Below are positions 20,625-61,617 of a DNA stretch of 64,000 nucleotides, one piece after another. How positions within the stretch are numbered: the stretch's first letter is position 1; each line of letters begins with the position of its first letter. The DNA comes from Macrostomum lignano (taxonomy: Eukaryota): contig NIVC01000084.1 in assembly GCA_002269645.1 (NCBI GenBank), positions 186,001 through 250,000 on the forward strand, given 5' to 3'. Below the pieces are notes generated by a model. It made no database searches. It worked only from the letters and a program-made list of their open reading frames with translations, and was not told where the DNA came from. The translations under genes and the position numbers were made by a program.

Positions 20625-22004
20625 ATGCATCTGGAGCGTCTGATACTTCTGCTGGTCCTACCATCGTGCATTTCAATTTTTCCTAGCGTTGTCGCATCGT
20701 CCTCGGGCCAGCTGGGGCCGAAGAACACCATCTACGATGGCCTACTGGCTTATTTATTTGAAAACGAGACAACGCCGTACAAGGCGAATGCCATGCCAAT
20801 CTGCGAGCTGGGAAAGAAGCTGAAGATTCAACAGGATATGCTGCTTATTCAGCTGTTCGATCTTGACGAACCAACCCAGATGCTCACGGTTGACGTCTGG
20901 GTTGAATCGACATGGAAAGACTGTCGGCTGACATGGGATCCGAAGCGCTTTAACAATATTGATAACTTTGTCATCAAGGCGGAAGAGATCTGGTACCCCG
21001 ATCTTATATTCTACGAGTCCCTGCACGGAAACTTCGAAGAGGGCATGTTCATCTACGGCGAGTCCAAGGCCAGAATCTTTAGCGACGGCTCCATTCAGCT
21101 AGGAGCTCAGGCCGTGTTCAAGTCTTTCTGTCGGATCAACATAGCGCAGTTTCCGTACGATAGACAGCGCTGCAACATCACGTTCAGCTCTTGGACGAAG
21201 GATACCAGCAATTTCTTGCTTGTTAAGAAGGAAGAAGCGCCCGGCAAAAAAGAAGATCATGCTTTTGTCAGTGCCAGCAACGGTGAGTGGATGGTGGAGG
21301 GTTTCCCATCCTTCGATCGCGTAGCGGACAGAAAAGTCGGTCTCGATGAGGCTTCTGGTCGTTCGAGACAATACAGCGAGGTTGCTTTCCAACTGCGGCT
21401 CAAGCGAAAGTACATGTTCCAGCAGATCTATATGCTGTTCCCGTGCATGCTGCTCACTTGGCTGACGCTATTCGTCTTTATCATGCCAACCGAGTGCGGC
21501 GAGAAGATAGCTTACGTCACCACTATTCTACTGTCGCTGATGGTTTTCTTATTGATGGTGTCGGACAACATTCCCCGATCAGGCGACGCTGTACCGGTGC
21601 TAGGAATCTACTTCTGCATAGCCATAGCACTAGTGAGCCTCGCCAACATCAAGACTATAATCAGCTACAACATATCGCTGAAGGGTAAGGACTTCTGCAT
21701 GCCAGCTTGCTTCATTAAGATACTGGAAAGCGGCAAGTACGTCGGATTGCCGCTGACGCATCACAATGAGGCCGCTGTCAAAGTCATATCGTTCGCGATG
21801 AAGCCACGCCAGGCCGGACAGAATCCGGTGACGCGTCACGAGGACTCCGAGGTGCCGCTGTCGACGACAAACCCAGAGAGTCATTTCGGACAGGATGAGA
21901 ATAAATGGCGTTTTCTAGGAATCATTTTGGACAGAGTTTTTCTCATCATTTACTTTGTTTTGAATCTGGCTGTGTCAATCTGGATTTTGACCAGAGGCGA
22001 CTAG
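20625..22004 (+). CDS. Intronless nicotinic acetylcholine receptor-like subunit, non-alpha, predicted cation-selective
   Basis: Signal peptide; WYPDL loop A; Cys-loop CRINIAQFPYDRQRC; SSWT loop B; PTECGEKI-M2; four TM segments; AATAAA motifs downstream. No vicinal CC in loop C. Confidence 0.93.
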   Translation: MHLERLILLLVLPSCISIFPSVVASSSGQLGPKNTIYDGLLAYLFENETTPYKANAMPICELGKKLKIQQDMLLIQLFDLDEPTQMLTVDVWVESTWKDCRLTWDPKRFNNIDNFVIKAEEIWYPDLIFYESLHGNFEEGMFIYGESKARIFSDGSIQLGAQAVFKSFCRINIAQFPYDRQRCNITFSSWTKDTSNFLLVKKEEAPGKKEDHAFVSASNGEWMVEGFPSFDRVADRKVGLDEASGRSRQYSEVAFQLRLKRKYMFQQIYMLFPCMLLTWLTLFVFIMPTECGEKIAYVTTILLSLMVFLLMVSDNIPRSGDAVPVLGIYFCIAIALVSLANIKTIISYNISLKGKDFCMPACFIKILESGKYVGLPLTHHNEAAVKVISFAMKPRQAGQNPVTRHEDSEVPLSTTNPESHFGQDENKWRFLGIILDRVFLIIYFVLNLAVSIWILTRGD

Positions 22005-24588: not shown

Positions 24589-25656
24589 TCACTCCATAAA
24601 TCGGCCGCCAAGCTCAACGCACTTTTCCCAGCGACGTACCCACGCTTCAAAGGCGGGCCTGCAGCCGGCGATCGCCAGATGTCGGAGAGCTGATGAAGCG
24701 TTGTTCACCTGCTCCTCAGATCCGAAACGCTGGCCACGAAGGCTCTCTTTCATCTTCGGGAACAGATATGTAGAAGTCTGCCGGAGCCAAATCAGGCGAG
24801 TAGCGCGGGTGACGGAGAATTTCCCAGTTCCACGAGCCGAGCAGCTCTTTAACCCGTCTGGCCCGATGCACCGGGGCGTTGTCGTGATGGAATATGACGC
24901 CTCTCTCCAGAAGGCCCGGCCGCTTTTTCCTTATCGCTGGTCGCAGTTTCTCTTGAAGCATCCATCGATAGTACTCAGCATTCACTTTGGTACCCATAGG
25001 CACAGGCCAGTCCAGAATGATCCCGTCAATGTAAAAAAAATTATGTGCATCACCTTCAATGAGCCTTGCTTGCGTCGCACCTTCTCGGGACTCGCCGATC
25101 CTATCGGAAGCCACTGCGCTGACTGCCGCTTCAGCTCTGGGTCTCATTCGTTGACCCACGTCTCGTCTCCAGTCACTATTCTACCGAGAAATCCGTCGCC
25201 TTCACGACGAACCCGACGGAGGCAGTCCCGGGACACCACCACCCGCTCCTCCATCTGCTCGTCAGTCAGCAGGTGTGGCACCCATTTGGCGAAAAGCTTT
25301 TGTAGGCCTAAATTCTCGGTCAGAATGCGGTGCACAGTGCTGTGGGGAATGCCGAGGAGTTCCTCCAGCTCACTGCATGTCCTTCTGTTGTCTTCACTCA
25401 CAGAAGCCATCACGCGATCAGCATTGGAATCCGTTGTCGCAGTCCTTGGTCGTCCAGAACGCTCTTTGTCCTCCATGCAGTCCCGTCCTTCTTGAATTTC
25501 TCGCACCCACTTCCTGACCGTTTGAATGGATGGTGCAGCTTCACCTAGGACTCTCACGAGTTCTTGATGAATCTCTGGTGTCGATTTTCCAGGCAGCACA
25601 GAAAACTTGATGATGCTTCGAACGTCATAGCGAGAGAACGAGCTGGACGCGGCCAT
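24589..25656 (-). pseudogene. Mariner transposase, frameshifted
   Basis: HTH with RSGRP, WVPHLL, VTGDETW, HHDNAPVH, HPRYSPDLAPADF. Reading frame broken after DETWVNE, around 25030 and around 24770. Confidence 0.92.
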
Positions 25657-26118
25657 CGTTGCAAAGGGTTGTGTGCTTGGGTTGCAGCCATGCAGCTCGA
25701 GAACAAGCTAGGACTTAGCGACTTGTTTAGGGTTGGAACATAGACAAAAAAGAAAGCAACAACGTACGTGGCACTTAGCTAAGCCTCTTGGGTGCCGAGT
25801 TACATATGAGGGAAACTTACTTTTGATGAGGACGCACTTTTTCCCAAATCCCGCGCTAGCACATGGGCTCTAAACGTACTTGCCTACTAACAGTGGGCAA
25901 TGTAATATTCCTGCACGAAAACGAGTGCGTCAATGGCAAAAGCACGAGTGCGCGAAGCGCACGAGTGCATTTTGCCATAGACGCACGAGTTTGCGTGTAG
26001 GAAAATCATTGTCTTTTGACCATAGACAAAGTCATTCCTGCACGGTTTTCGAGAAACGTTAAGAAGAGATGAAAATTGAGTGGAGAGTTTATAGAAAAGT
26101 GTATAAAGCTTATTGACT

Positions 26119-26916
26119 ATGGCGTCTGTAATCGACTCGGCTCTGAATCCTCCATTAATTGATTTTCGCTACGCTACGGTGTCTGGATTAAGTGGCGACG
26201 AAATGTTTATTGAAAGTGTGTCCAGCAACTTTGAGAGGACGGGCGACGATTTGACTGCACTGATAGCGGATTGCACGTTCAGCGAGGAATTAGAGAAACT
26301 TTTCAGCTCGGATCCGGAAACCTTGTGTAACCTTGACGAATTGGAAAGTCTGGCCGCTCAACTGGAACGCGACAACGAATGTCATTCGACTGTCTCTAAG
26401 GAGAAAGCTGTGATCAACCGCTTGACGGCCTGGTTGGCGGAGAATAATTTAAAAGTGGATTACGCGACTGCTTCGGTGGAAGAAATTGCCAAATGGGTCC
26501 GCTACTTCTATGCGACTCTGCGTAAGTCAGACGGCAGCTTCTATTCGCCGAATACAATCGTAGGATATCGAGCCGCACTGATCAGGTACTTTATGAGAGG
26601 CAAGAAGAGGGACTCGATCATGGCAGGGATGAGTGATCAGCTGACAGTCGCTCTAGCTGGAACTATGCCGGCACCAAGTTCTACATTGAGCGAAGCTCCT
26701 GCAAGGGCTGTTACAACTACCGACCCGTGCGCCCTGAACGACGCTCCTACAAGGGCTGTTGCGACTACCGACCCGTGCGGATCAGCGTCAATGTCAACTG
26801 TCAAGAAGTCACTGGTTGTTGAAGAATCGACCACCACACTTGTAGCAGCCCCCACTAAGCGGATGAAGATTTTGGCAAACGGCAAAACGAATGTTGTGCA
26901 GTTTATTTTCGAGTAA
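26119..26916 (+). CDS. Crypton/DUF3504-type recombinase N-terminal (core-binding) domain protein lacking the catalytic domain, 265 aa
   Basis: EEIAKWVRYFYATLRKSDGSFYSPNTIVGYRAALIRYF resembles the ZMYM/KCTD1/Crypton 'L..FY...RK.DG..Y....L...RA.I.RY' motif. It joins in frame directly to a C-terminal tail (IMAGMSDQL) with no RHRY catalytic motifs. ATG at 26119. Confidence 0.65.
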   Translation: MASVIDSALNPPLIDFRYATVSGLSGDEMFIESVSSNFERTGDDLTALIADCTFSEELEKLFSSDPETLCNLDELESLAAQLERDNECHSTVSKEKAVINRLTAWLAENNLKVDYATASVEEIAKWVRYFYATLRKSDGSFYSPNTIVGYRAALIRYFMRGKKRDSIMAGMSDQLTVALAGTMPAPSSTLSEAPARAVTTTDPCALNDAPTRAVATTDPCGSASMSTVKKSLVVEESTTTLVAAPTKRMKILANGKTNVVQFIFE

Positions 26917-27470: not shown

Positions 27471-29634
27471 TTTTACCCCTAAAAGTACCTTGGGATTAGC
27501 GATTAGCGATTTCTCTTCATTATCTTCACTTTCTATTTAATAAGAGCTTTCTAATGTATATTTTTTCATTAATTTCTGTCCATCCTACGCGAAAAGTCAT
27601 AAATCATTTTGTTGCGATTTTGAGTTATTTATGGCCGCACCTGTCATCTTTTTTCGACCCTGTGGGAACTGATAGGATCTCTCGGTCACGTGATTCTGGG
27701 TAGCAACAAGCTTAGCCAATCAGAAAATTCGGCGCTCATTTTAACAAAACGGCTCAGCCAATCAGAATCGACGTGTTCCGTTATACCAAACTACGGTCCA
27801 GTTGGCGGCTTTTTAAACCGGTGTTTTTGGCCCGCTCGGAACTCAACTGGCTTTTTCCTGGTTCCTGCTCCACCGGCCAGGAACTGACCGTCGTTTCTTG
27901 ATCCCCGGATTGCGACTTCCCCCCATCATCATCAAGGACGAATCCCCCGGTCATCAGCAGCGAACATCAAGTGAAGAGCATCACCTGCTAGCTAACAGCG
28001 AAGATTGTGACAGCATCATCCTGAGTCTACAGCTGCAGAGCATCAAGCCGATTCGGTCACTGTGGATTACCTGGTCTCCGGCTGTTGAGTTTCTGATTGG
28101 TTGGGTGAGAGGCTACCTAGACTTGCTTGATTGGGTGATCCCTTATCTGGCGCCCATTTCAGTAGCTGAATTAGGCGCACACTTTTGCTCTTTTTGTTCA
28201 GTAGTGCTGTTACTGAGGCAGAAATCATTCAATAATACTGCTAGTAGTATAAAACTCCAATTCAATCCGAAGTGTGAAGTGAACTAAGGAGAAGGTTAAA
28301 TCTAACAGTTATTTTTATCGGATTTATTTCTTTGTTCGCCGATGGCTCAGATGAGTAGCTAAGCTAGTAGACGCCGGTCACAGTGGACCAATGGCAAGGC
28401 AGTTCTCAGTCGACCAATCTATCAAACCAGTGAGCAAAGCTGCCAGGAGTGCAGAATCAGCGCCAGAGATGTACTCCGTGCACTCTAGGTTAGCCAAGCG
28501 GCTTGGGTAAATGAATCATGCGGTCTCTGAAGTTCGAGTTAGCCTATCATCAGCGCTAGGAGAGGCTAGTTGGCGCGTTGAAGGCCAAAAGTACATATCT
28601 TCGTATTTAGCAATGTAATAGTACATGTAGCTACCCGGCCCATAGACTCGCCACCGCAAGAATCCCCTGCACAAGTCCCCTCTGTACCTGCATGGCCAAT
28701 GCGATCTAGTCCCAGCAGTGTCCCTATCATCGGCTATGACTTCGAGATTGACAGCAGAAAGACACTAGTTGGCAGGTAAGTGCAAAGCCCCTTCTAGTCG
28801 GAAGCCCGATTTCGAGAGTCCCGGTGTGGTGAGCCAGGGTGGCAGCCAGGGCCAGGGTGGCAGCAAGTTAGTTGATCTGCGGATTAGCTAATTTCTACTT
28901 TCAAAATTCTCCCTGCTCGTCTCTCGCTGTCCCTCTCTTAGCTATAGGACCTAGACTGCTCGCCACACGATCAAGCTACCATGGGGCTGACCATCTGACA
29001 GGAGTGGGGGGCCAGGTCTCTAATTGATTTATTTCTGAGCCTGAGGCCCGAAGGCTTCCATAACAAGGAGCCCGAAGGTCGAAACCCATCACTTTTGGGA
29101 TACACCTCGTAATACGAGGTTTTTGAGCATATCCAAAATAGTTTAAGCGGAATTATATATTTGTTATATTTGTTAATATCTAACTACCTTTTCTGAATCG
29201 CATTCTAGGAGAATCGTTTTGCTTTAAGGTCATATATATACATGTACGACATTGATTTTTTATTTTTCCCTGCTTAGAATCTTGTTGTTCAGTCGTTAGT
29301 CGTTAATGGGCTGGAAAACCGTTTAAAAAAATTCTAGACGCTCATTCAAATACCTTACTTTTACAAATATCGTAACTCGTATCGTAACTCGTGTAAAAAT
29401 TTAACCTTTTGAACAAATACTAAATACATCGGATTATACTGGCAAAACAGGCTCCTTAAGCCTGAGCCAAATTTACTAAAACTACTACTACTTAAACAGA
29501 GTTAAAAATGAGTCAGAAGCGCACTGTTAGTCAGCGATATCTACGTGTTAGCAACTTTTAAGCACGAAGCATGAAGCATGGATGTCACGTTCCGCCTAAC
29601 GGCTTTTAACGTGTTCTAAGAAATCCAATGATTG

Positions 29635-30623
29635 TGAGGTGGGGGTGGAGAAGAACTTTCTTAGAACGGTTGTTTTTTGAATTTGCTGACACCAGTGAGG
29701 TGGGGCGGATTCCTCGTTTGAATTGCCGCCGGCGTTGAGTTCGCACGAATAAAACCGGAAAACGCGCAGACGAATCACAACGAAATTTCTTCTCCTGTCT
29801 TACTCCGACAGCCGGGTTCTCAAGTCCGGGGGGAGGGTAGTTGTAATCGTAGTCGAGCGGTCGTATAGCGGCCCGGTCGTTCAGATCCGTAGACTCAATT
29901 GGTCTTGACACCGTAAAGCTGCTTTTGAATTGTCGTACTGATTACTGTCAGTAGAGTAGCGCTGCCACCACCGTAATTTGATCCGTATTACGGAACGTTG
30001 GGATCTCAGAGCTCGCTTAAAGTTGAGATCGATTCGGTTGTTTAACGCCCCACGGGCAAATGACTCAAGATAACTGTTATGGGCTTCGATGCTTGAACAA
30101 CTTATTTTAATTATTACTGGGTTTATTTATTGAGCAGGCTGGGTTGCTGGTTAAATTAGAAAAGTTATTTGAAACAAAACCGACGGTGATCGCGGCCGGT
30201 GCCGGGTGCCAATTGCACTAACCAAGAAACTTAAAACACCAAACTACGTTAAACCAACAAAGAAAACAAAACCTAAAACAAAACCAAGAGGAAGAAAGGA
30301 AGGAAGGGAGGAGGAAGAAGAAGCATAATAACAGGCGGCCCGAATTGGCCATATAAATAGAGGGAGTGTCGCCCGGACAGGGATGGGGCAACAGATGGGG
30401 CAACAAGGCAAGGGATGGGGCAGAGAATGGGGCAAAAGATGGGGCAACGGACGGCAACAAAGCCGGGAACGGAGAAAAACAAAACTTAGAGCATCGGCAA
30501 AAGATGGGGCGAGGGATGGGGCATGGGACGGCGCACCGGGTGACAAAATACAACGAGTCATAGCGGTGATGTCACCCGTCTCACGAAACATTCTTGCTCG
30601 GAGTGGTAGCTCGCCCTACCACA
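29635..30623 (-). repeat. 3' LTR
   Basis: Matches 38836-39824 at offset 9201 with no differences seen by eye; AATAAA (minus) at 30122-30131; TATA-like at 30351-30359. Confidence 0.97.
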
Positions 30624-30671
30624 GGCGCCGGGGCGCCGTGCGCTAAAAGAAAACTAGCAGTCTCCCGGCTG

Positions 30672-31433
30672 CTACTGTTGACGTCCTCTGCCGGAGCCGC
30701 GGCCTCGACGAGTGGGTGGCGGTCGGGCAGTCGCAGCGTCGGTCTGAGCGGCGGCGGCAGCTTCTCGTACGGCGGCGCGAGCCGCAGCGCGGGCCTCCCG
30801 ATCGGCGCCGGCCGTGCTGGCGAGTCGGCCCTGGCGACAGAGATTTAGGAACACAGGCGGGACGCCTCGGCCCAGGGCGGCCGCGTATTCCGCGCCGAGA
30901 TGCATCATCGATTCGACGAGGCCCAGTTGGGCGCCGGCCGTCTCGTGCGGGAGGCGCGCGCTCAGCAGCTCCGCAGCCATTAGGATAGCCCTGGACGCGG
31001 TGGCCTGGCCGTGCTGTTGCGCTAGCGCTCTCCAGGTGCAGCAGTCACTAGAATGCTGCCGGCCATCCGTATCCAGCTCCCAGAGGAGCCACTCGGCGAG
31101 CTGCTGGGCGCCCTCTACCGTGGGTCGGTGTTCCGCCGACCATGGCGCTGATAGTGTGCCGCTGGACCCGCTGGACCATTGGGCTGGCTGCGGCTGTGGC
31201 GGGGGCGACGGTGGCCGATGTACTTCGACGAAGCGGATTGCGTCCTGCAAGGGGTCCGCTTGGGCCGCATACACGTCGGCCAAGAATCCCTCAGGCCAAT
31301 GGTCCGGGCTATTCGGCGGAACGAAAGGTTGAGGCGGCGCAGGCGGTCCGACGGGCTCGACCCTTGGCTGATCCACCGCGAAAAGTCGCTCAATCGGATC
31401 GTCGATCTCCCTATTCTCATGGCCGTTATACAT
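30672..31433 (-). CDS. Gypsy ORF3 (env position), 253 aa, unknown function, not Env-like
   Basis: Uninterrupted ORF from ATG 31433 preceded by ttaac...tttccag|caacaATG (acceptor-like). Pro-rich N-terminus, helical core, RG-rich C-terminus; stops 48 nt before the 3' LTR. Confidence 0.7.
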   Translation of the reverse strand: MYNGHENREIDDPIERLFAVDQPRVEPVGPPAPPQPFVPPNSPDHWPEGFLADVYAAQADPLQDAIRFVEVHRPPSPPPQPQPAQWSSGSSGTLSAPWSAEHRPTVEGAQQLAEWLLWELDTDGRQHSSDCCTWRALAQQHGQATASRAILMAAELLSARLPHETAGAQLGLVESMMHLGAEYAAALGRGVPPVFLNLCRQGRLASTAGADREARAAARAAVREAAAAAQTDAATARPPPTRRGRGSGRGRQQ

Positions 31434-32474
31434 TGTTGCTGGAAAGTTGTCGATAGAATGGCTTGTTAATTTGCTGACAAGGCGCAGAGTCGCAAAACCA
31501 AAATTGAAAAAAACAGAGCAGGAGAGTTGGGGCTTCAAATATATGGCTAACCACGCATCCGATGGACAGGGTTTGTCCTTCCGATGGTGTGGGTCCGTCA
31601 CCCCCCCCCATGCACTCTAACGAGGCACACAACGGAGGTGAGGTGGGTGAGTGAAAAGAGAGCAATAAAATTTGGCCGCGAGGAGGGGTCCAAAACCTCC
31701 TAACTTAACCGAAGGCGGCAGTGCCTTATTGATTAAAAGGGGCGCCTTAAACGGCTTACATGAAAGGGGTAAGCGTTTGAGAAAAAGGGGAGCCTCGCAA
31801 ACATTAGTTGAAACGATAAACTGATAAAATAGTGAGAGGCTAGCCAGCTCCTTCTGACTAAAATTATAACAGTAATTATAACCGTAATGAATAGCGTAGT
31901 GACCACTGAACAGGTTATCGTACGGGGATCTCCATATGGAGTTACAACAAAAGAGCAAAAGAAACCGAGCCGAAATGAGGGGCTCTAACAAAATTTCCCA
32001 GGCCTAGCTGGCACGAACAATACAAAGAATAAACATATGGGGAAGAGATTCTCCTCAGGTGCCTTCCGCTGAAGACAAGACCTCGAGTTAGGGGTGCTTG
32101 TCCCGAACGGGGCAAAATTTCCGAATAAAATGGCAGAAGTACACACTTGCCGTTCATGTTTGAGACTGACAGGCTCACAATTCAGGCATGCTTTTCTCCG
32201 GAAAGCATAAGGCAAAAGAGAGAGACTTTCCGCACTTTGACAGGGTGCTAGGAAAGTTTACAATTGATTGGGGCTTTCGCAGACTATTAAGACGCAGGGG
32301 AGCGATGATGCGGGTGAATAATATCGCGTTGGTGCAAGGCTTTACCATTAAGCCTAAGGCTAAATATCAGACGCAGAGGTGCAGGTCGCATTGGATAAAT
32401 ATGCGCTCGAAATTGAGCATGAGCACCAAGTTTACAAATGCTTTTGACCAGAAAGCGTAAGGAGCAGAGATTGA

Positions 32475-32679
32475 AAAATTAGTTGCTTTTGCCCTCAAGC
32501 ATAAGGAAAGTACAGAAAATTAGTTGCTTTTGCCCTCAAGCATAAGGAAAGTACAGAAAATTAGTTGCTTTTGCCCTCAAGCATAAGGAAAGTACAGAAA
32601 AGTAATTGCTTTTGCCCTCAAGCATAAGGAAAGTACAGAAAATTAATTGCTTTTGCCCTCAAGCATAAGGAAAGTACAG
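32475..32679. repeat. 5 x 41-bp tandem repeat inside the Gypsy pol-ORF3 spacer
   Basis: AAAATTAGTTGCTTTTGCCCTCAAGCATAAGGAAAGTACAG x5, near-identical. Confidence 0.95.
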
Positions 32680-32844
32680 ACAAATTAATTAACGAAAAAT
32701 TGAAATTTGCTTTCAGCACAGAACGGGCGCAGAGAAAGCATACAGCGAAATCTAATTCAGGACGCGTTCGCAAACGGGACTACTCATAGTAATGCGCAAC
32801 GTTAATTTATCTATTAGGCGCACAGAAATTCGCTGGTAATTACC

Positions 32845-35800
32845 TTAGAGTTCCACTTCCATGCCGACATCAGGTAGGTCCGGGTCGCCTTCAGCGAGCA
32901 CTTCCGGATGACGCAAACTTGGCTCGAACAGCTGGCTGCCCCGCAGGTCGGGCTGAGCTGTGGTTGGCTGTACTTGCGCGTGCTGATCGGCGGAGTCGGC
33001 TTCGCTGTCGTTACTCGACTCATAGGGCAGCATTGGCCTCTCAGTCTGGCGCGGCGGCTCCTGTGGCCGGTCGGCCATCATCTGTGGCACCTTGATGATG
33101 TTATTGCGATGTACCAACATTTCAGCCGGGCGTCCTCGGCGGGCTGTCGCCGGTCTGATCCAGTACGCCACTTCTCCGACTTTCCTAACGACCTTGTACA
33201 TGCTTTTGTAGGGCCGGTGGAATTTAGGCAGCTCTCCCAGTTCAAGCTTCGGGTTGGCCAGGCAGACAAGGTCGCCGGGCTGCAATTCCACGGGCTTAGG
33301 TCGATTTTCATATTCTTCACGGCGTTGGATCTCAGCTCGCAGACGTTGCCGTACAATGCGCTCAGTCTCGGCCAGTCGGCGCTGGTGCTTCGCGATGTAT
33401 TCTGGGAGGTCAGCTGATACATCCAAGCGGTCTAGGGTGTTGTCGATAGGGTATCGATAAGGCATTCCGTAGACGACATAGTGCGGCGAGAAACCAGTAG
33501 TACGATTGACGGCTGATCGTAGTGCAGTCAAAGCGGCTGGCAGCATCTTGTCCCATTGCTGGTGGTCTTCTAGGAGACAAGTGAGCACCTTCTTGATATT
33601 CTTGTTACACGACTCGGCTTGTCCATTAGCCCAGGGCGAGTATGGCGGTGTCGTAGTCTGTCGTATGCCATAGACTTCGCAGAAATGTCGGAACTCATGC
33701 CCTGTGAACTGCTTGCCTTGATCAGAGTGAATCCACGCCGGGATTCCAGTGATCGGGAAGACCTGTTCCTGCAGGAGAGTTATGATCGTCTTGGCCCGCT
33801 GATTTTTCATGGCGAAGGCGAAGGGATATTTCGACGTTGTGTCAACGTAGGTCAAGATGTACTTGTTTCCCCGGTCAGTAGGATCTCCAGTGGGGCCTAA
33901 GATGTCAATCGCACATCGCCCATAGATTTCACATACCGGAAACGATTGTACATGCGCCGGAATTCGTCGTCGCCCTTTGCTCTGCGTGCAAGTCTGGCAG
34001 GAAGCGACGTAGTCGGACACTGCTTTAGCTAGGGCAGGTCGCCAGAATCTTTCGCGCACTTTTGCAATGGTGAGGTCTCGACCCATGTGTCCGCAGTACG
34101 GCGAGCCATGCAGGTCGGCTAACACCGTGGCGTCGAGACTTTTCGGCAAGACGATTCGCGCTATCTCCTCCTCGCCAACATCGTCGAGATGAATCACTAG
34201 TAGTCCGTCGTCTCGAACTTCGAGCTGCTCGTAAAACGCTAGCAAATTTCGCTCATCTCTTGTCATATTCAATCGCTGATTCAGCGGCGGCTTGGGTTGT
34301 CGACTTTCGATAAGGTTGATCACCATAGAGATGGCAGAGTCAGCACGCTGATGGGTCTGGAGCTCCTCGCGGGTGACTGGCCTCGGAATGTGATCAGTTA
34401 GATTCAAAGTTCGGCGTCGATCAGTAGGATTAGACGGTGCGGCTTCGGCTGTGGCGACATGGTTCGGGGTCTGGAGCTCCCTACGCATGATGGCTACTTG
34501 GGCCGGTCGCCGTGTTGTCGATGTGTCCGAGGGTCGATCCTCGTCAGTGGCTTCGGCGTCACTGTCGCTCAATCCTGATTCGTCAGCAGATGAGAATGAT
34601 GAGGCAGCACTATCAGCATCAAGGCTAAACCTCACCTTCTTGAACCTTGGGCAGCGAGCGGGTTGGCAGCGGTCATCTCGGGTTGCACTGTGGTCGCTGT
34701 CCTCGCCCTCTCCAGCTCGTAGTCGGCGGCTCCTCGCGGGGCAACGTGTCGTGTTAACGAGACTAGTGGGCGATCGCTGCGAGTCCTTGTAACGACTGGC
34801 CGTTGGCCTTGGCTTCGTCGCCGGCGGGTGCAGCTCTGTCAGCGGCCTGCTGTCGGCTGTCGGTGTTGCTGGCGGCGTAGCCTCGCCGTTGGACTCCTTC
34901 GGCTTTGTCGGCGGTCGTCGTCGATTCCGGCGGGTCGATGGCTTCTTGCTCGGTGGAGGGCTAGGGTGGCTGCTGTCAAGGACCTTCGGCGCCGCTGCGC
35001 CAGTTATCGCGGCTGGCTGCTTACTTTGGTCCTCGTCTGCTGCCTCTCGCTGAGCCTCCTCCATGCATTCAGCGTCGTCCTCTGGCCGTCTCGATAGGCC
35101 GTCGGCATTCTGGTGCTGACTCGATTTGCGATGCTGGATCTCGAACTCGAATTCGCTTAGGCGCTGTAGCCATCGTCCAAAGATGCCTACTTGTTGAGTT
35201 CGCCGGAGAATCCAGGTCAACGCTGCGTGATCAGTTCGACAAATAAACTTCTTGGCCAGCAGGTAGAATCGGAAATGTCGCATGCCGTCTACAACTGCCA
35301 AGAGTTCCTGCTTTGTTATCGGATATCGCGCTTCAGCTGGTTTGAGTCGCCGGGAGAAATAGCCAATTGGTCGTTCGATTCCATCAGCTTGGCGCTGGCT
35401 CAGACATGCTCCGATTCTGGTCGCAGAAGCATCCGTGTCCAGGACAAACATGACGTTGGGGTCTTCGCTGAACTGCGGATACGCGAGCACTGAGGTCGAA
35501 GTCATGGCCGCTTTAAGCTGGTCGAACGCGTCTTGTTGGGCTTTCCCCCATAGACAGTTAAAGTTGCGAATTTTCTTCTCTTTAATTACATCGTGGAGTG
35601 GAGCTGCCAACTCTGCGTAGCCAGGTACAAATTTTGCATAGTAAGCACACGTGCAGACGAAACTTTTCAGTTGCCGGGCAGTTCTTGGTCTCGGCCAGGT
35701 TTGGATTGCTTCGATTTTCGCCGGATCGGTCTTGATGCCGTCTTTCGTAACTAGATGTCCCAAATAATGGAGGCTTTCCCGAAATAAATGACACTTCTTG

Positions 35801-37518
35801 CCTTTGAACTTTAAGTTAGCGCCTTGGACTCGTTTGAAGACTTCCTCCATATGTCGAAGATGGTCGTCGAATTTCTTGGAATACACGATGACGTCATCCA
35901 AATAGGCTATGGCACTTTTGTAGGCTATCCCTTGAAGTACAGCGTTCATGAGGCGCATGAAGCTGGCTGGTGCTGAACTTAATCCCATCGGCATAACATT
36001 GTAGGCAAATTGCCCTCTGTGCAGCGTAGCAAAGGCTGTCAGATCTTGGTCTTCTGGACGCAGAGGTATCTGATAATAACCGCTATTCAAGTCGAAGGTG
36101 CTAAATAGTTGACTTCCTTCGAGGCTGGCGAATGCTTCTTGGATATTCGGTATCGGGTACGGAAAGTACTCACACTTCTGGTTCAGACTCCGGAAATCTT
36201 GTACAATTCTCAGGCTTCCGTCCTTCTTTGGGATGATCACGAGCGGGGTGTTGTAATTCGAGAAGCTTGGTCGGATCACGCCTTTGGCAAGCAGATCATC
36301 TAGTAGCTGGTCCACTTTGGGCAACAGGTGCGGCGGAATCCGTCGGGTCGGCAGGTGTACAGGATCCTTATCCTTCAGTACGATGTTGTGGGTGACCAGG
36401 TGAGTTCGACCTAGATCGTGCGGTCCTTGGGAGAAGATGTTCTTGTACTTCTTCAGCAGCTTAATTACTTGAGCGCGCTGGTCACTGGACAAGTCCTCGC
36501 CGATATCGACCTCTTTAATCCAAGCATCCGGATCTTCATCCTGAATCTGTTTGACAGAGACTTCTGGCTGTGGAAGCGGGTAGAATTGCAGTTCTGGCAG
36601 TCTAAGTGGTCTCGCAATCCCGATAAGTGCATTCGCTCGTACTTTAATAGATGTTGTACCGCGATTAATCATTTCGATTGCACCTTCACCATTGACCATA
36701 GATATTAGCGCAGGCGCAGCGTCCAGGTGCTGCACCTCGTCTTCGCGTCTGGCTGGTTTCAGCGGCTCGATAACTGCCGGTGTTCCTTGATTGTCTTCAC
36801 GCCCTTTAGCTAGCTTAATTCTAATTCGGGCCGATGATAATGGTGGCACTGTGGTGCTTTCGGCCGTGTAGATTCTGCACGTGGTAGCTTCAGCTCGCGT
36901 GTAGCGGAGTGGGGCGGCTGTGCCGTTCTTGAAAAACAGCATCCCGGCTGCGAGGTCGAGGGAGTTGCTGTGCTTCTCCAGGAACTCGAAACCCAGGATG
37001 TTATCATGAGATCCTTGTGCTAGCAGAAAATTGACTGTCGACTCGAAGTTGCCGATCTTCATCTTGATCGCAAGCTGTCCTGCCATCTTGATTGGTTCAC
37101 CATTGTAGGTCACGATTCGCTCTAGACAGGGCTTGATTTGTCCACGCAGAGAGGGGTCGTCGATGCAGAGTCGGTGCCAAGTGCTGAATCCGAGGACCTC
37201 GCACTTAGAGCCAGTATCAAGCAAGAAAGCAAAATAACGCCCATTAATCTCACCAGTTATAAACGGGTCTCTCCGAGGGCGCTTGGGTGCAGAGTTCTGT
37301 ACAGGTGCGGAGGCGGTCTCAGCAGTAGCCTGCTGAGCGACTAAAGTCCGCGGCGGGGACTTTAGTGCTGGCTCGGCCGCTGGATGGCGCTGCCCCGATG
37401 GCGCGTCCAGCCGTCGCGTTTCCCGAGCTGCTGCTGCGCTGGGGCGCGTTGCTGGCCGACCGTCGATGCGGGCACTCTTCAGCGCGATGCTCCCGGTTGC
37501 ACCTGTAGCACATTGCAC
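32845..37518 (-). CDS. pol: Gypsy Pol polyprotein (protease, RT, RNase H, integrase), intact
   Basis: LLDTGS protease; YLDDVIVYS RT; DTDAS..IGACLSQ / TDHAAL / NADGLSR RNase H; HHCC and D,D35E integrase; degenerate GPY/F module. One uninterrupted frame; true N-terminus presumably reached by frameshift from gag. Confidence 0.97.
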   Translation of the reverse strand: MQCATGATGSIALKSARIDGRPATRPSAAAARETRRLDAPSGQRHPAAEPALKSPPRTLVAQQATAETASAPVQNSAPKRPRRDPFITGEINGRYFAFLLDTGSKCEVLGFSTWHRLCIDDPSLRGQIKPCLERIVTYNGEPIKMAGQLAIKMKIGNFESTVNFLLAQGSHDNILGFEFLEKHSNSLDLAAGMLFFKNGTAAPLRYTRAEATTCRIYTAESTTVPPLSSARIRIKLAKGREDNQGTPAVIEPLKPARREDEVQHLDAAPALISMVNGEGAIEMINRGTTSIKVRANALIGIARPLRLPELQFYPLPQPEVSVKQIQDEDPDAWIKEVDIGEDLSSDQRAQVIKLLKKYKNIFSQGPHDLGRTHLVTHNIVLKDKDPVHLPTRRIPPHLLPKVDQLLDDLLAKGVIRPSFSNYNTPLVIIPKKDGSLRIVQDFRSLNQKCEYFPYPIPNIQEAFASLEGSQLFSTFDLNSGYYQIPLRPEDQDLTAFATLHRGQFAYNVMPMGLSSAPASFMRLMNAVLQGIAYKSAIAYLDDVIVYSKKFDDHLRHMEEVFKRVQGANLKFKGKKCHLFRESLHYLGHLVTKDGIKTDPAKIEAIQTWPRPRTARQLKSFVCTCAYYAKFVPGYAELAAPLHDVIKEKKIRNFNCLWGKAQQDAFDQLKAAMTSTSVLAYPQFSEDPNVMFVLDTDASATRIGACLSQRQADGIERPIGYFSRRLKPAEARYPITKQELLAVVDGMRHFRFYLLAKKFICRTDHAALTWILRRTQQVGIFGRWLQRLSEFEFEIQHRKSSQHQNADGLSRRPEDDAECMEEAQREAADEDQSKQPAAITGAAAPKVLDSSHPSPPPSKKPSTRRNRRRPPTKPKESNGEATPPATPTADSRPLTELHPPATKPRPTASRYKDSQRSPTSLVNTTRCPARSRRLRAGEGEDSDHSATRDDRCQPARCPRFKKVRFSLDADSAASSFSSADESGLSDSDAEATDEDRPSDTSTTRRPAQVAIMRRELQTPNHVATAEAAPSNPTDRRRTLNLTDHIPRPVTREELQTHQRADSAISMVINLIESRQPKPPLNQRLNMTRDERNLLAFYEQLEVRDDGLLVIHLDDVGEEEIARIVLPKSLDATVLADLHGSPYCGHMGRDLTIAKVRERFWRPALAKAVSDYVASCQTCTQSKGRRRIPAHVQSFPVCEIYGRCAIDILGPTGDPTDRGNKYILTYVDTTSKYPFAFAMKNQRAKTIITLLQEQVFPITGIPAWIHSDQGKQFTGHEFRHFCEVYGIRQTTTPPYSPWANGQAESCNKNIKKVLTCLLEDHQQWDKMLPAALTALRSAVNRTTGFSPHYVVYGMPYRYPIDNTLDRLDVSADLPEYIAKHQRRLAETERIVRQRLRAEIQRREEYENRPKPVELQPGDLVCLANPKLELGELPKFHRPYKSMYKVVRKVGEVAYWIRPATARRGRPAEMLVHRNNIIKVPQMMADRPQEPPRQTERPMLPYESSNDSEADSADQHAQVQPTTAQPDLRGSQLFEPSLRHPEVLAEGDPDLPDVGMEVEL

Positions 37519-38767
37519 TCTGGCGTCTTAGCTGATAAGGCGGCGGTCTCGAACTCGGCTGCGGCGGCTGTTGCGGCTGCGGCCGCTGCTGCTGCTGCTG
37601 TCGCCGTCCTCCTGCCGGTGGCGTCCTTGGCGGCGGAATGCTGCCGTCCCGCGGTTGCTGAAGCTGATGGAACTGTTGATGCTGCACATTGCGTGTGCTG
37701 TTTGTCACAAATTGAGCGCTTCCTTCAGCGCTGCGGCGAGGAGTCATGGGTACCAGACATCGGTTGCGCTGGCCCCAGGAGTCCCGCGGCTGGTGGCGAG
37801 CAGGTTCATATGACTCCGGGGTGTCGTTATCTCGCGATCCCCGTGAGTAGAACTCACGCATCTCATTGCTCAGGGCTTCTAGTAGACGTCGCTGCTCCTG
37901 CAGTGTCTCTGTCTGTTGCTCCATCACTTCTCGCAACCAATTTTCCTCGGGCCGAGGTGACTTGTCGTGTTGCACTCCAGTTGGTGGCTGACAGTCGTCA
38001 TCCTCGAGAACCCGTACATGTCTCGCGGCCGGCGGCGGTGCTACTCGCTGAGCCAGGCTCGCTGCTGTCTCTAGGCGTAGCACTGCCCTTCTCGCTGCGG
38101 TTAGATTCTGCGGCCGTACCAGGATTAGCTGCTCTCTGGCTGACTGGGCGATTCGCACTCCGACCGTGAACTGGTCCACCAGTTCGGCCTGCTTCTGAAC
38201 TGGGGTGAAGTGCGGGAATGCTCTATCAGCCAGAGCAATTAATCGGTCACCGTAGTCGTCGACACTCTCGTTTTTTCCTTGCTGGCAGCATCGGAACTGC
38301 TCCCGGTACTCCAGCGTGTCGGCCACGTGCGTGAAGCGCTCGGACAACCTCTGCTTGAACTCGCCAAACGTCAGATTGTCCGGCAGTTCCATCCTGACGA
38401 CTGCGGGATATGTGGTGGCGATGTCCAGATTTACTAGGACTTCCGCCTTCTTTCGTCTGTCGTCCATGATCCCGTTGAGCTCACAACGCTCCTCGAGAGC
38501 CTGGATCCAGACGTTGAAATCCTGGTTTGGAGTGTACCGCTGAATCTTAACCGGTTTTGGCACTGGAGCTTGGTCCGGCTGTTGGGGCGGCTGGTACACG
38601 TGGTGATGGTGTTGTGGCTGACCCAAATTAGCCTGCTCCAGTCGTCGTCGCACCTCTTCGGTCACCGCGCGGATCATCTCGTCGTAGGTAGGTCTTGTAG
38701 ATGAATTGTCGGGGCCCGCGGCGTCGGTTGTCGCGTCCGCGGCCGTTGAGTTAGTAGTCGAAGCCAT
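37319..38767 (-). CDS. gag: Gypsy Gag with CX2CX3HX4C zinc knuckle
   Basis: First ATG after the PBS at 38767 (MASTTNS..); capsid-like core (F..W...Q..ESV.DY..RL..LA..AFP); CYRCNREHRAEEC. Confidence 0.9.
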   Translation of the reverse strand: MASTTNSTAADATTDAAGPDNSSTRPTYDEMIRAVTEEVRRRLEQANLGQPQHHHHVYQPPQQPDQAPVPKPVKIQRYTPNQDFNVWIQALEERCELNGIMDDRRKKAEVLVNLDIATTYPAVVRMELPDNLTFGEFKQRLSERFTHVADTLEYREQFRCCQQGKNESVDDYGDRLIALADRAFPHFTPVQKQAELVDQFTVGVRIAQSAREQLILVRPQNLTAARRAVLRLETAASLAQRVAPPPAARHVRVLEDDDCQPPTGVQHDKSPRPEENWLREVMEQQTETLQEQRRLLEALSNEMREFYSRGSRDNDTPESYEPARHQPRDSWGQRNRCLVPMTPRRSAEGSAQFVTNSTRNVQHQQFHQLQQPRDGSIPPPRTPPAGGRRQQQQQRPQPQQPPQPSSRPPPYQLRRQSAMCYRCNREHRAEECPHRRSASNAPQRSSSSGNATAGRAIGAAPSSGRASTKVPAADFSRSAGYC

Positions 38768-38813
38768 AACGTAGATTCTGAACGACTCGTCGAATGGGTT
38801 TTGGCGTTTCGTT

Positions 38814-38834
38814 ATCCCACTTAGCTGACCACCA
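38814..38834 (-). other. Primer-binding site, tRNA-Leu(CAA)-like with bulges
   Basis: TGGTGGTCAGCTAAGTGGGAT, 1 nt after the 5' LTR, versus the common gypsy Leu PBS TGGTGTCAGAAGTGGGAT. Confidence 0.75.
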
Positions 38835-38835
38835 G

Positions 38836-39824
38836 TGAGGTGGGGGTGGAGAAGAACTTTCTTAGAACGGTTGTTTTTTGAATTTGCTGACACCAGTGAG
38901 GTGGGGCGGATTCCTCGTTTGAATTGCCGCCGGCGTTGAGTTCGCACGAATAAAACCGGAAAACGCGCAGACGAATCACAACGAAATTTCTTCTCCTGTC
39001 TTACTCCGACAGCCGGGTTCTCAAGTCCGGGGGGAGGGTAGTTGTAATCGTAGTCGAGCGGTCGTATAGCGGCCCGGTCGTTCAGATCCGTAGACTCAAT
39101 TGGTCTTGACACCGTAAAGCTGCTTTTGAATTGTCGTACTGATTACTGTCAGTAGAGTAGCGCTGCCACCACCGTAATTTGATCCGTATTACGGAACGTT
39201 GGGATCTCAGAGCTCGCTTAAAGTTGAGATCGATTCGGTTGTTTAACGCCCCACGGGCAAATGACTCAAGATAACTGTTATGGGCTTCGATGCTTGAACA
39301 ACTTATTTTAATTATTACTGGGTTTATTTATTGAGCAGGCTGGGTTGCTGGTTAAATTAGAAAAGTTATTTGAAACAAAACCGACGGTGATCGCGGCCGG
39401 TGCCGGGTGCCAATTGCACTAACCAAGAAACTTAAAACACCAAACTACGTTAAACCAACAAAGAAAACAAAACCTAAAACAAAACCAAGAGGAAGAAAGG
39501 AAGGAAGGGAGGAGGAAGAAGAAGCATAATAACAGGCGGCCCGAATTGGCCATATAAATAGAGGGAGTGTCGCCCGGACAGGGATGGGGCAACAGATGGG
39601 GCAACAAGGCAAGGGATGGGGCAGAGAATGGGGCAAAAGATGGGGCAACGGACGGCAACAAAGCCGGGAACGGAGAAAAACAAAACTTAGAGCATCGGCA
39701 AAAGATGGGGCGAGGGATGGGGCATGGGACGGCGCACCGGGTGACAAAATACAACGAGTCATAGCGGTGATGTCACCCGTCTCACGAAACATTCTTGCTC
39801 GGAGTGGTAGCTCGCCCTACCACA
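38836..39824 (-). repeat. 5' LTR
   Basis: 989 bp, matches the 3' LTR; followed on the minus strand by the PBS and gag. Confidence 0.97.
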
Positions 39825-40694
39825 ATTGTAATTTAACTTTGTTCAACGTGATTACGACTCATGATGCAGGGAATCATCAATGATTCAATACAATAGTTTT
39901 TTTGGATCTAGCATGTTTAAACTTTAAGTCATCACTTTTCTGACTTTTTAAGGTTACAGAAATTATTCCTTCTAACTCTGCCTGTACCTGTAGTCTGTAC
40001 TAGTGGATTAGCGTAGCCTACTTGCTATATGTAGTATTTTTGTAGGCCTAGGTAGGCACTAGCAATTATAACATTGTATCAACTGCCAAAGTGATTGTCA
40101 AAATGTTTTTAACTTTAATTAATTAAACATATGTACAATTAAATTTATTGAATAATTTGAATGGAACATGGTGTCAATACAACGAAAATATAACTTAGGC
40201 CTAATTATTGTACTTAGGCCCATAATATATAGAACTTATTAATATTATTAATAATAATAATCAGCAAATCAGGCATGTCTCATTAGTAATTTATACAGGC
40301 TCTATATAACTTAGTTTTATTAATTGTAGCTTGCATACAATAGCTTGAATTGCATCTTTTTTATCTATTTATCTAGTTTAAACTTCCTTTTGTTCTTTTT
40401 TCTACCTTTTTGGCTGTCTTTTTATTTTTAGGCCTAATTGTATCTTCTTTATAGGCCTAAGTTTCTTATCCTACCTTAGGCCTAAGGTTCTTTTGCTAGG
40501 CCTATCTCTTGCCTTTTTATTTAGAGTTGGCATATTGAAATAAATTTTAAAATTTGCCTTGGTTTGGTAATAGGAAATACAACCTTGGGGTTCAGATCCA
40601 GATCCTAGGATCTTGTAATCCCAAGATTAGGCCCAAATCCTAGGATTCCAATTATCCCAGTTTGCAATAATTTAATCATTCATTCTCAAATAGT

Positions 40695-61615: not shown

Positions 61616-61617
<2 letters not shown>

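What the first reader, a model, noticed from the sequence alone, without database searches (positions are those of the whole stretch)
30672..31433. Intact young Gypsy element carries a third, non-Env ORF of unknown function
Seen: between pol and the 3' LTR lies an uninterrupted 253-aa sense ORF. It has a Pro-rich disordered N-terminus, a ~110-aa helical core (GAQQLAEWLLWELD..CCTWRALAQQHG..AAELLSARLP..LVESMMHLGAEY..VFLNLCRQG) and a basic RRGRGSGRGR tail. It has no signal peptide, no TM anchor and no furin site, so it is not Env. A branch/acceptor-like ttaac...tttccag sits 5 nt before its ATG. Known: errantivirus env is expressed from a spliced subgenomic RNA at this position, and some transposons encode accessory anti-silencing proteins. 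Inference: an accessory nucleic-acid-binding protein (anti-piRNA/anti-methylation, packaging or transmission factor) maintained by an active element; I recognise no family for it.
Basis: partly seen in the sequence, partly recalled or inferred. Interest (0 to 1): 0.75.

Follow-up and report, generated by a model that had tools for sequence, protein, structure and literature searches.

The report
Orphan third gene in flatworm retrotransposon
A recently inserted Gypsy retrotransposon of the flatworm Macrostomum lignano carries, where retroviruses keep their envelope gene, a non-envelope gene whose only relative found is one other M. lignano protein; it likely encodes an RNA-binding helper of the element, though it may be a captured host gene.

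Summary
The ORF is real: 253 codons on the minus strand (31433-30672), between pol and the 3' LTR of a Ty3/Gypsy element with identical 989-bp LTRs and a 4-bp target duplication. The host is Macrostomum lignano. The protein has no hydrophobic segment or furin site, so it is not Env. Pfam, PHROGs, NCBIfam, PDB, ESM Atlas and fold searches name no family. A search of 1.84 billion proteins found one genuine homologue: M. lignano Mlig013834 (38% identity over a 113-residue helical core, also ending in a basic RG tail), an expressed gene whose genomic setting I could not see. The core has therefore likely been kept as protein. Two qualifiers. Sequencing contigs cover gag/pol 7-66 times deeper than ORF3, hinting that ORF3 rides on a 3' block confined to a few copies. 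And 'intact' is overstated: pol is not in the frame that the slippery site would serve, and there is no polypurine tract. Best reading: an accessory RNA-binding protein made from a spliced subgenomic RNA (inferred, 0.4); main rival: a captured host gene (0.27). Non-Env third ORFs are a known class; this protein family appears undescribed.

The parts
38836..39824 (-). 5' LTR, 989 bp, TG...CA with imperfect ~10-bp terminal inverted repeats; TATA-like site at 39556, AATAAA at 39332
   Evidence: promoter and poly(A) roles inferred from motifs
39825..39828 (-). target-site duplication CAAT, upstream copy
38999..39004 (-). candidate splice donor (GGA|GTAAGA) in the U5 part of the LTR; no ATG between 39520 and it
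   Evidence: use not shown
38814..38834 (-). primer-binding-site-like stretch starting TGG, 1 nt after the 5' LTR
   Evidence: tRNA identity not tested
37319..38767 (-). gag, 482 aa, with a CCHC-like knuckle near the C-terminus
   Evidence: Retrotrans_gag E 8.2e-5, 23.2 bits against a cut-off of 24.1
37319..37527 (-). gag-pol overlap with in-frame heptamer GGGAAAC (37424-37418) and a downstream hairpin; frame relation anomalous in this copy
32845..37527 (-). pol open frame (1560 codons): protease, RT, RNase H, long disordered linker, integrase
32434..32683 (.). 41-nt tandem repeat array after pol, shared with the wider family
31434..32288 (-). non-coding spacer (about 44% GC over the whole pol-ORF3 interval), start of the low-depth 3' block
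31439..31469 (-). branch-point-like TTAAC and acceptor TTTCCAG, 5 nt before the ORF3 ATG; fits the M. lignano [T/C]TNCAG acceptor motif
30672..31433 (-). ORF3, 253 aa: acidic Pro-rich N-terminus (1-103), helical core, long Ala-rich helix, basic RG tail
30783..31124 (-). conserved core of ORF3 (aa 104-217), 43 of 113 aligned residues identical to P0129
30624..30671 (-). 48 nt between the ORF3 stop and the 3' LTR; no polypurine tract
29635..30623 (-). 3' LTR, identical to the 5' LTR
29631..29634 (-). target-site duplication CAAT, downstream copy

Best explanation
ORF3 is a non-envelope gene in the 3' part of a Macrostomum lignano Ty3/Gypsy element whose helical core and basic RG tail are shared with one diverged M. 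lignano protein, and it likely acts as an accessory RNA-binding protein of the element, probably translated from a spliced subgenomic RNA. Shown: the ORF, its position, the homologue, the acceptor 5 nt before the ATG, an ATG-free leader with a GTAAG donor in U5. Inferred: (1) splicing from the U5 donor (39004) to 31438 makes ORF3's ATG the first AUG of a short mRNA that ends in the 3' LTR; (2) the RG tail binds RNA and the helical bundle is an interaction or oligomerisation module; (3) its most likely client is the element's own unspliced RNA, which carries splice sites and must be exported, shielded or packaged, the job done by CERV in Cer1 and Rev in HIV-1. ORF3 appears to travel on a 3' block (spacer-ORF3-U3-R) that differs from most pol relatives, so it is likely a lineage-specific module rather than a family-wide gene.
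For: ORF length beyond chance (8 of 2000 shuffles); GC steps from about 45% to 65-78% at the ATG. Homologue P0129: E 3.7e-8 among 1.84 billion proteins; score 168 against 40.7 +/- 6.5, 0 of 1000 shuffles; 38% identity with one gap per row. Both proteins end in a pI-12 tail with RG/RGG repeats. AlphaFold2 on the two-sequence alignment gives the core mostly pLDDT 70-80 and a five-helix arrangement. A second ORF3 variant exists: a 377-nt contig of run X11 over 31048-31424 with 16 differences and no gap. Leader 39520-38768 has 0 ATG in 753 nt against a shuffle mean of 5.5 (3 of 2000 shuffles had none). Donor and acceptor fit the top M. lignano motifs GT[G/A]AG and [T/C]TNCAG (PMC8629364, passages). 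Precedent: CERV, from a spliced Cer1 mRNA, is needed for export of unspliced RNA (PMC10309623, abstract and section 15).
Against: No splice joint to 31438 among the 15 joints shown (76 more not shown; all runs are contigs), so splicing is untested. ORF3 is covered 45, 7, 15 and 66 times less deeply than the pol median in the four runs, and at about flank depth in DNA run X5 (186 against 172), so most pol relatives at 80% identity or more do not share it at that level; summed contig depth is not a copy number, so this is a hint. The homologue's genomic setting could not be seen, and its longer gene model P0131 joins it to CHMP2A with no gag or pol sequence. The N-terminal halves of the two proteins are unrelated (531 of 1000 shuffles score as well). 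The core itself is not basic (pI 5.7). No dN/dS could be computed. This copy has a gag-pol frame anomaly and no polypurine tract.
Confidence: 0.4

Rival explanations
1. ORF3 is a captured, intron-free copy of a Macrostomum-specific host gene (family of Mlig013834) that rides as a passenger in a few young copies and does nothing for the element.
For: ORF3 depth is near flank depth while pol relatives are far deeper. The only homologue is an annotated, expressed gene: Mlig013834.g1 is classed 'Non-Specific' and 'OvI_down' (PMC7336406, supplement row). Sharp GC step at the ATG. No polypurine tract after ORF3. Transduced ORFs typically occur in one or a few copies (PMC7264820, part 1 of 3 read).
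Against: A recent capture should leave a near-identical host source; none was found among 1.84 billion representatives or in two searches of the 90% set, only a 38% relative. The low-depth block includes the spacer and U3/R as well as ORF3, with loose ends at 39273-39274, which fits a whole swapped or diverged 3' module. The ORF is complete, with its own acceptor, and a 96%-identical variant has no gap over 377 nt.
Confidence: 0.27
2. ORF3 is an element-encoded accessory protein that works mainly on host proteins, for example dampening piRNA or chromatin silencing, the RG tail serving as a nuclear-localisation or PIWI/Tudor-type docking signal.
For: The conserved part is a neutral helical bundle with a HEAT-like arrangement rather than a recognisable RNA-binding fold. 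A fast-changing, lineage-restricted 3' module suits host conflict (inference). RG repeats as methylarginine docking sites is recalled, not tested.
Against: No sequence or fold link to any known silencing suppressor. Copies carrying it do not look more numerous than relatives without it.
Confidence: 0.2
3. Same gene, different route: ORF3 is released from the genomic RNA by spliced-leader trans-splicing at 31438 (operon-style), or from an internal promoter in the spacer, rather than by cis-splicing. This concerns expression only and overlaps the functional readings.
For: The acceptor TTCCAG matches the top trans-splice acceptor motif; 30% of M. lignano genes are trans-spliced (PMC8629364, passages). 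It is one of only two such motifs in the 1411-nt spacer. TATA-like sites at 31880, 31868 and 31543.
Against: The leader ends in AUG; joined at 31438 that AUG would be out of frame with ORF3 and open an alternative 107-codon frame. The motif also suits cis acceptors, and an unpaired upstream donor exists in U5.
Confidence: 0.2
4. The ORF is a chance product of GC-rich sequence, or a decayed env.
For: 65-78% GC lowers stop frequency; codon-usage score of the ORF frame (0.084) is no better than that of one antisense frame (0.089).
Against: Shuffles rarely give such an ORF and the homologue aligns in this frame. No hydrophobic segment, furin site or sequon; 3 cysteines only; all-helical model.
Confidence: 0.05

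Closest known systems
Additional ORFs (aORF / ORF3) between pol and the 3' LTR of LTR retrotransposons (PMC7264820, part 1 of 3 read; PMC5408684, part 1 of 5 read)
   Same: Sense ORF at the env position in an element with recent LTRs; bdelloid rotifer elements carry varied non-Env ORF3s in the same place.
   Different: Not an Env-like membrane protein, GDSL esterase or DEDDy exonuclease (no Pfam match); not shown to be present in most copies of the family.
CERV of C. elegans Cer1 (PMC10309623, abstract and section 15 read)
   Same: Accessory, non-Env protein of an animal Ty3/Gypsy element made from a spliced RNA; the functional model proposed here.
   Different: CERV is large, with G-protein-like and Cys-loop domains; ORF3 is 253 aa with one helical bundle and an RG tail. 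No sequence link surfaced. Function of ORF3 untested.
Errantivirus env-F (bioRxiv 10.1101/2023.08.03.551782, passages read)
   Same: Position after pol; acceptor just upstream, as for a spliced subgenomic RNA.
   Different: No signal-like or transmembrane segment, furin site or conserved cysteine set; host is a flatworm.
M. lignano Mlig013834.g1 (PAA73306.1; P0129)
   Same: 38% identical core, similar predicted helix boundaries, basic RG tail.
   Different: Carries an unrelated, predicted helical N-terminal half; genomic setting unknown; annotated as an expressed gene.
M. lignano Ty3/Mdg4 LTR families (PMC12801592, part 1 of 6, passages and Table S1 read)
   Same: Same host and superfamily; closest Pol hits are M. 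lignano proteins at 60% and 57% over the RT-RNase H region.
   Different: That paper's main text has no occurrence of 'ORF' or 'envelope'; clade (Mag, CsRN1, Gmr1/Osvaldo, Mdg3) not assigned here; no heat-shock element found in this LTR.

Membership tests
Ty3/Gypsy LTR retrotransposon | Two LTRs with TG...CA ends and a target-site duplication | tested here: met
   989-bp identical LTRs, CAAT duplication
Ty3/Gypsy LTR retrotransposon | pol order protease-RT-RNase H-integrase after gag | tested here: met
   Pfam
Ty3/Gypsy LTR retrotransposon | Primer-binding site after the 5' LTR | tested here: inconclusive
   TGG-starting stretch 1 nt after the LTR; not compared with host tRNAs
Ty3/Gypsy LTR retrotransposon | Polypurine tract before the 3' LTR | tested here: not met
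   No purine run of 11 nt or more there; the flank is GC-rich
Ty3/Gypsy, transposition-competent copy | A route from gag into pol | tested here: inconclusive
   pol is +1 to gag; the in-frame heptamer's -1 frame stops after 18 codons; other copies differ in this overlap, so mutation or assembly error
Errantivirus env-F | N-terminal signal peptide and C-terminal transmembrane anchor | tested here: not met
   Maximum 19-residue hydropathy 0.89 over the whole protein; no dedicated predictor run
Errantivirus env-F | Furin site R-X-K/R-R followed by a fusion peptide | tested here: not met
   None; three minimal RXXR only in the C-terminal helix and tail
Errantivirus env-F | Expression from a spliced subgenomic RNA | tested here: inconclusive
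   Motifs present; no joint among those shown from contigs
Bdelloid ORF3 types (GDSL esterase, DEDDy exonuclease) | Sequence match to the enzyme family | tested here: not met
   0 Pfam families for ORF3 at E<=1 and for its core and P0129 at E<=10
Conserved aORF class | Present in most copies of the family, conserved like gag and pol | tested here: inconclusive
   Summed contig depth 7-66 times below pol, but this is not a copy number and misses homologues under 80% identity; one 96% variant seen
CERV/Rev-like RNA export factor | Nuclear protein that binds and multimerises on unspliced element RNA and is needed for its export | not testable with these tools
   Only the basic RG tail and loose NES-like patterns
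CERV/Rev-like RNA export factor | Sequence or fold relation to CERV or Rev | tested here: inconclusive
   No such hit; CERV itself was not compared directly
Gmr1/Osvaldo, Mag or CsRN1 clade | Placement in an RT tree with reference elements | not tested
   No reference set at hand; RT/RNase H motifs and the 4-bp duplication recall the Gmr1/Osvaldo group (recalled, from no call)

The most novel reading that the evidence does not exclude
ORF3 and Mlig013834 are two members of an undescribed family of retroelement accessory proteins, carried on an exchangeable 3' cassette (spacer-ORF3-U3-R) that recombines onto different gag-pol backbones, expressed by splicing (possibly spliced-leader trans-splicing, operon-style) and acting as a Rev/CERV-like or anti-silencing factor in a transgenesis-ready stem-cell model animal.
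Probability: 0.2. Interest if true: 0.75.

Novelty: new variant of a known kind. Interest (0 to 1): 0.45.

Why it matters
Few accessory genes of animal LTR retrotransposons have a known job beyond Env. A small, soluble, conserved non-Env protein at the env position would add a new type, and M. lignano allows RNAi and transgenesis, so its location and partners can be tested. If it is a captured host gene, it is a clean case of gene capture by a Gypsy element in a flatworm, of modest interest. Orphan third ORFs as such recur widely, which limits the surprise.

Tried and rejected
No whole genome is held for this window, so copies could not be listed and dN/dS not computed. ORF3 against Pfam, PHROGs, NCBIfam: 0 families. 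Word-indexed homologue search, near lengths: none of 8000 candidates; core profile against longer proteins: only P0129 of 8000. Of the 4 phmmer hits, P0127 is a gene model of this same locus, and P0128 and P0130 are tandem-repeat proteins rejected as repeat artefacts. ESM Atlas: no usable hit for either protein. PDB sequences: best E 1.1. Foldseek against PDB and BFVD: no match at E<=0.001; VIA-align wide: best Z 6.5, none at 8 or more; P0129 model is poor (pLDDT 43.7) and its best Z 8.4 is a generic helical match; absence of a match does not show a new fold. Core profile in viral and metagenome contigs: 0 of 26 and 0 of 75 pattern matches confirmed. Pol alignment: 0 of 35 in viral contigs; 15 of 211 in metagenomes, all distant (26-47%), and none holds the ORF3 core. 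An internal repeat in P0129, and likeness of the core to the element's own Gag or Pol, were not significant. Spacer is not a decayed LTR, shows no unusual RNA structure before ORF3 (z -0.31) and no Rfam match. No RNA holder was on record among the 24 runs listed; X11 and X16 are only guessed to be RNA, so they are no evidence on expression. Literature: searches showed no paper describing this ORF; 'Mlig013834' had 0 main-text hits and appeared in 1 of 5 supplement sets searched. Supplements of PMC5946080 and PMC8629364 could not be read, and the earlier M. lignano LTR classification cited as ref. 16 in PMC12801592 was not seen; any of these may mention the gene.

Full report
Observation. The minus strand holds a Ty3/Gypsy element from 39824 to 29635. 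Its LTRs are 989 bp and identical, start TG and end CA, and are flanked by a CAAT duplication. [quoted passage not shown] After pol come a 41-nt tandem array, a spacer, and the 253-codon ORF3 (31433-30672), which ends 48 nt before the 3' LTR. An ATG ORF of this length arose in 8 of 2000 dinucleotide shuffles of the GC-rich kilobase. The protein has no hydrophobic stretch (maximum 0.89), no R-X-K/R-R site and no sequon, so it is not Env.

Host. Of seven window proteins looked up, two are in the collection, and one of them clusters with four named Macrostomum lignano proteins. The closest full matches to Pol are M. lignano proteins at 60% and 57% over the RT-RNase H region (the top-scoring row is a tandem-domain frog protein at 39%). 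A gene model of this same locus (P0127, M. lignano) contains ORF3 residues 7-250 unchanged while differing from the window at a few gag and pol residues, and DNA run X5 has a contig identical to 30752-31298, so the ORF is not an assembly artefact.

Is it a gene? phmmer against 1.84 billion representatives gave 4 hits: the locus's own model, two tandem-repeat proteins that I rejected, and P0129, M. lignano Mlig013834g1 (291 aa, E 3.7e-8). The match covers ORF3 residues 104-217 at 43 of 113 identities and far exceeds shuffles (168 against 40.7 +/- 6.5, 0 of 1000). Both proteins end in a pI-12 tail with RG or RGG repeats; their N-terminal halves are unrelated. AlphaFold2 on the two-sequence alignment models the core as five helices, mostly at pLDDT 70-80, with a disordered N-terminus (mean 57.4, pTM 0.43). 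A contig of run X11 covers 31048-31424 with 16 differences and no gap, so a second variant exists; the substitutions were not displayed, so dN/dS could not be computed. Conservation of a core and a tail across 60% divergence is the main evidence that the sequence has been kept as protein (inference).

What family? None: Pfam, PHROGs, NCBIfam, PDB sequences, ESM Atlas, Foldseek (PDB, BFVD) and VIA-align gave nothing significant. The best structural scores (Z 6.5 for ORF3) are within what generic helical bundles give.

How widespread in the family? I laid four runs on 30624-40600 at 80% likeness. Summed contig depth over pol (median of 13 bins) exceeded that over the two bins inside ORF3 by 45, 7, 15 and 66 times in X11, X16, X14 and X5; in DNA run X5 ORF3 was at 186, the host flank at 172, U3/R at 1627 and pol at 12243. 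The high-depth region runs from the tandem array (about 32290) to about 39280, where loose ends pile up. Since U3 is copied from the 3' end of the RNA, spacer, ORF3, U3 and R form one continuous block that most pol relatives do not share at 80% identity. The tool warns that summed depth is no copy number, so this is a hint, not a count; and relatives may carry ORF3 homologues too diverged to be laid, which P0129 could be. It does weaken the idea of a family-wide gene and keeps capture of a host gene alive. Mlig013834.g1 is listed as an expressed, position-non-specific transcript, down in grouped against isolated worms (PMC7336406, one supplement row and passages). Its longer gene model joins it to CHMP2A and contains no gag or pol; its setting could not be seen.

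Expression route. TTAAC and TTTCCAG lie 5 nt before the ATG. The leader from 39520 to the gag ATG has no ATG in 753 nt (shuffle mean 5.5; 3 of 2000 had none), and a GGA|GTAAGA donor lies at 39004 in U5. Splicing between them would make ORF3's ATG the first AUG (inference; the start site is placed from a TATA-like motif at 39556, not measured). The donor and acceptor fit the top M. lignano motifs (PMC8629364, passages). The acceptor also fits the spliced-leader motif, but the leader's terminal AUG would fall out of frame with ORF3, so I rank cis-splicing higher. No joint to 31438 was among the 15 shown of 91, and all runs are contigs, so this is untested.

How intact? Pol is in the +1 frame relative to gag. 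The only in-frame slippery heptamer (GGGAAAC, 37424) with a hairpin behind it would serve a -1 shift, and that frame stops after 18 codons. Related contigs and the other gene model differ from this copy within the overlap. This copy is thus either defective for Gag-Pol or mis-assembled there. There is also no polypurine tract before the 3' LTR, which I cannot explain. Identical LTRs still point to a recent insertion, though polishing can also equalise them (inference).

Mechanism. I commit to an accessory RNA-binding protein, made from a spliced subgenomic RNA, that handles the element's own unspliced RNA (0.4). The basis is the conserved RG tail, the soluble helical core, the splice signals and the precedent of CERV in Cer1 (PMC10309623, abstract and section 15). 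All functional steps are inferred. Rivals: captured host gene as passenger (0.27), host-directed or anti-silencing adaptor (0.2), chance ORF or env remnant (0.05); trans-splicing or an internal promoter as the route (0.2, overlapping the others).

Comparison and novelty. Non-Env ORFs between pol and the 3' LTR are a described class in plants and bdelloid rotifers (PMC7264820, part 1 of 3; PMC5408684, part 1 of 5). Env hallmarks are as listed for errantiviruses (bioRxiv 10.1101/2023.08.03.551782, passages); flatworm env-carrying elements are reported with gB-type Env between gag and pol (PMC13524379, passages), unlike this one. The M. lignano LTR survey I read in part does not mention extra ORFs (PMC12801592). 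Eight literature searches showed no description of this protein. Earlier notes of this scan report orphan third ORFs in other genomes but nothing similar in sequence; they are unchecked and only show that the pattern recurs. Verdict: a real, apparently undescribed two-member protein family in a known kind of position; new variant of a known kind; interest 0.45.

Noticed in passing
window 38906-38883 and 38845-38821 (minus strand; also in the 3' LTR): The LTR end plus the start of the primer-binding site is duplicated inside U5 (92% over 25 nt), as if an earlier LTR end had been retained.
   Followed up: no
window 30624-30671: No polypurine tract before the 3' LTR of an element with identical LTRs; plus-strand priming is unexplained.
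   Followed up: partly
window 37319-37527: Gag-pol overlap frame anomaly in this copy; other copies differ here.
   Followed up: partly
window about 34400-35080 (pol residues about 670-895): Roughly 200-residue Pro/Ser/Arg-rich disordered linker between RNase H and integrase, much longer than in the closest relatives.
   Followed up: no
window 32434-32683: 41-nt tandem array after pol, shared with the wider family by depth; possible cis element.
   Followed up: no
window 31523-32509 and 39445-39824: Run X14, labelled a different organism, holds contigs about 99% identical to the spacer and LTR at low depth: a shared element or a mixed sample.
   Followed up: no
window 30244-30591 and 39445-39792 (minus): A 115-codon ORF inside each LTR (U3/R), low complexity, no Pfam match.
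   Followed up: partly
window 31115-31438 (minus): A basic 107-codon frame overlaps the 5' half of ORF3 and is the frame that a spliced-leader AUG would open.
   Followed up: no
window 20625-22004 (+), 55059-56231 (-), 61616-63349 (-): Three single-exon genes: a ligand-gated ion channel, a rhodopsin-family GPCR and an ENaC/DEG channel.
   Followed up: partly
window 25144-25707 (-): Truncated mariner-type transposase with HTH domains.
   Followed up: partly
window 26119-26916 (+): 265-aa ORF without a Pfam match, with a 45-nt internal repeat; unexplained.
   Followed up: no
window 51567-52091 (+): 174-aa ORF with a C5orf34 C-terminal domain.
   Followed up: partly
P0127, P0131: Both database gene models are chimaeras of unrelated exons, so their names (GPCR, CHMP2A) say nothing about ORF3.
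   Followed up: yes
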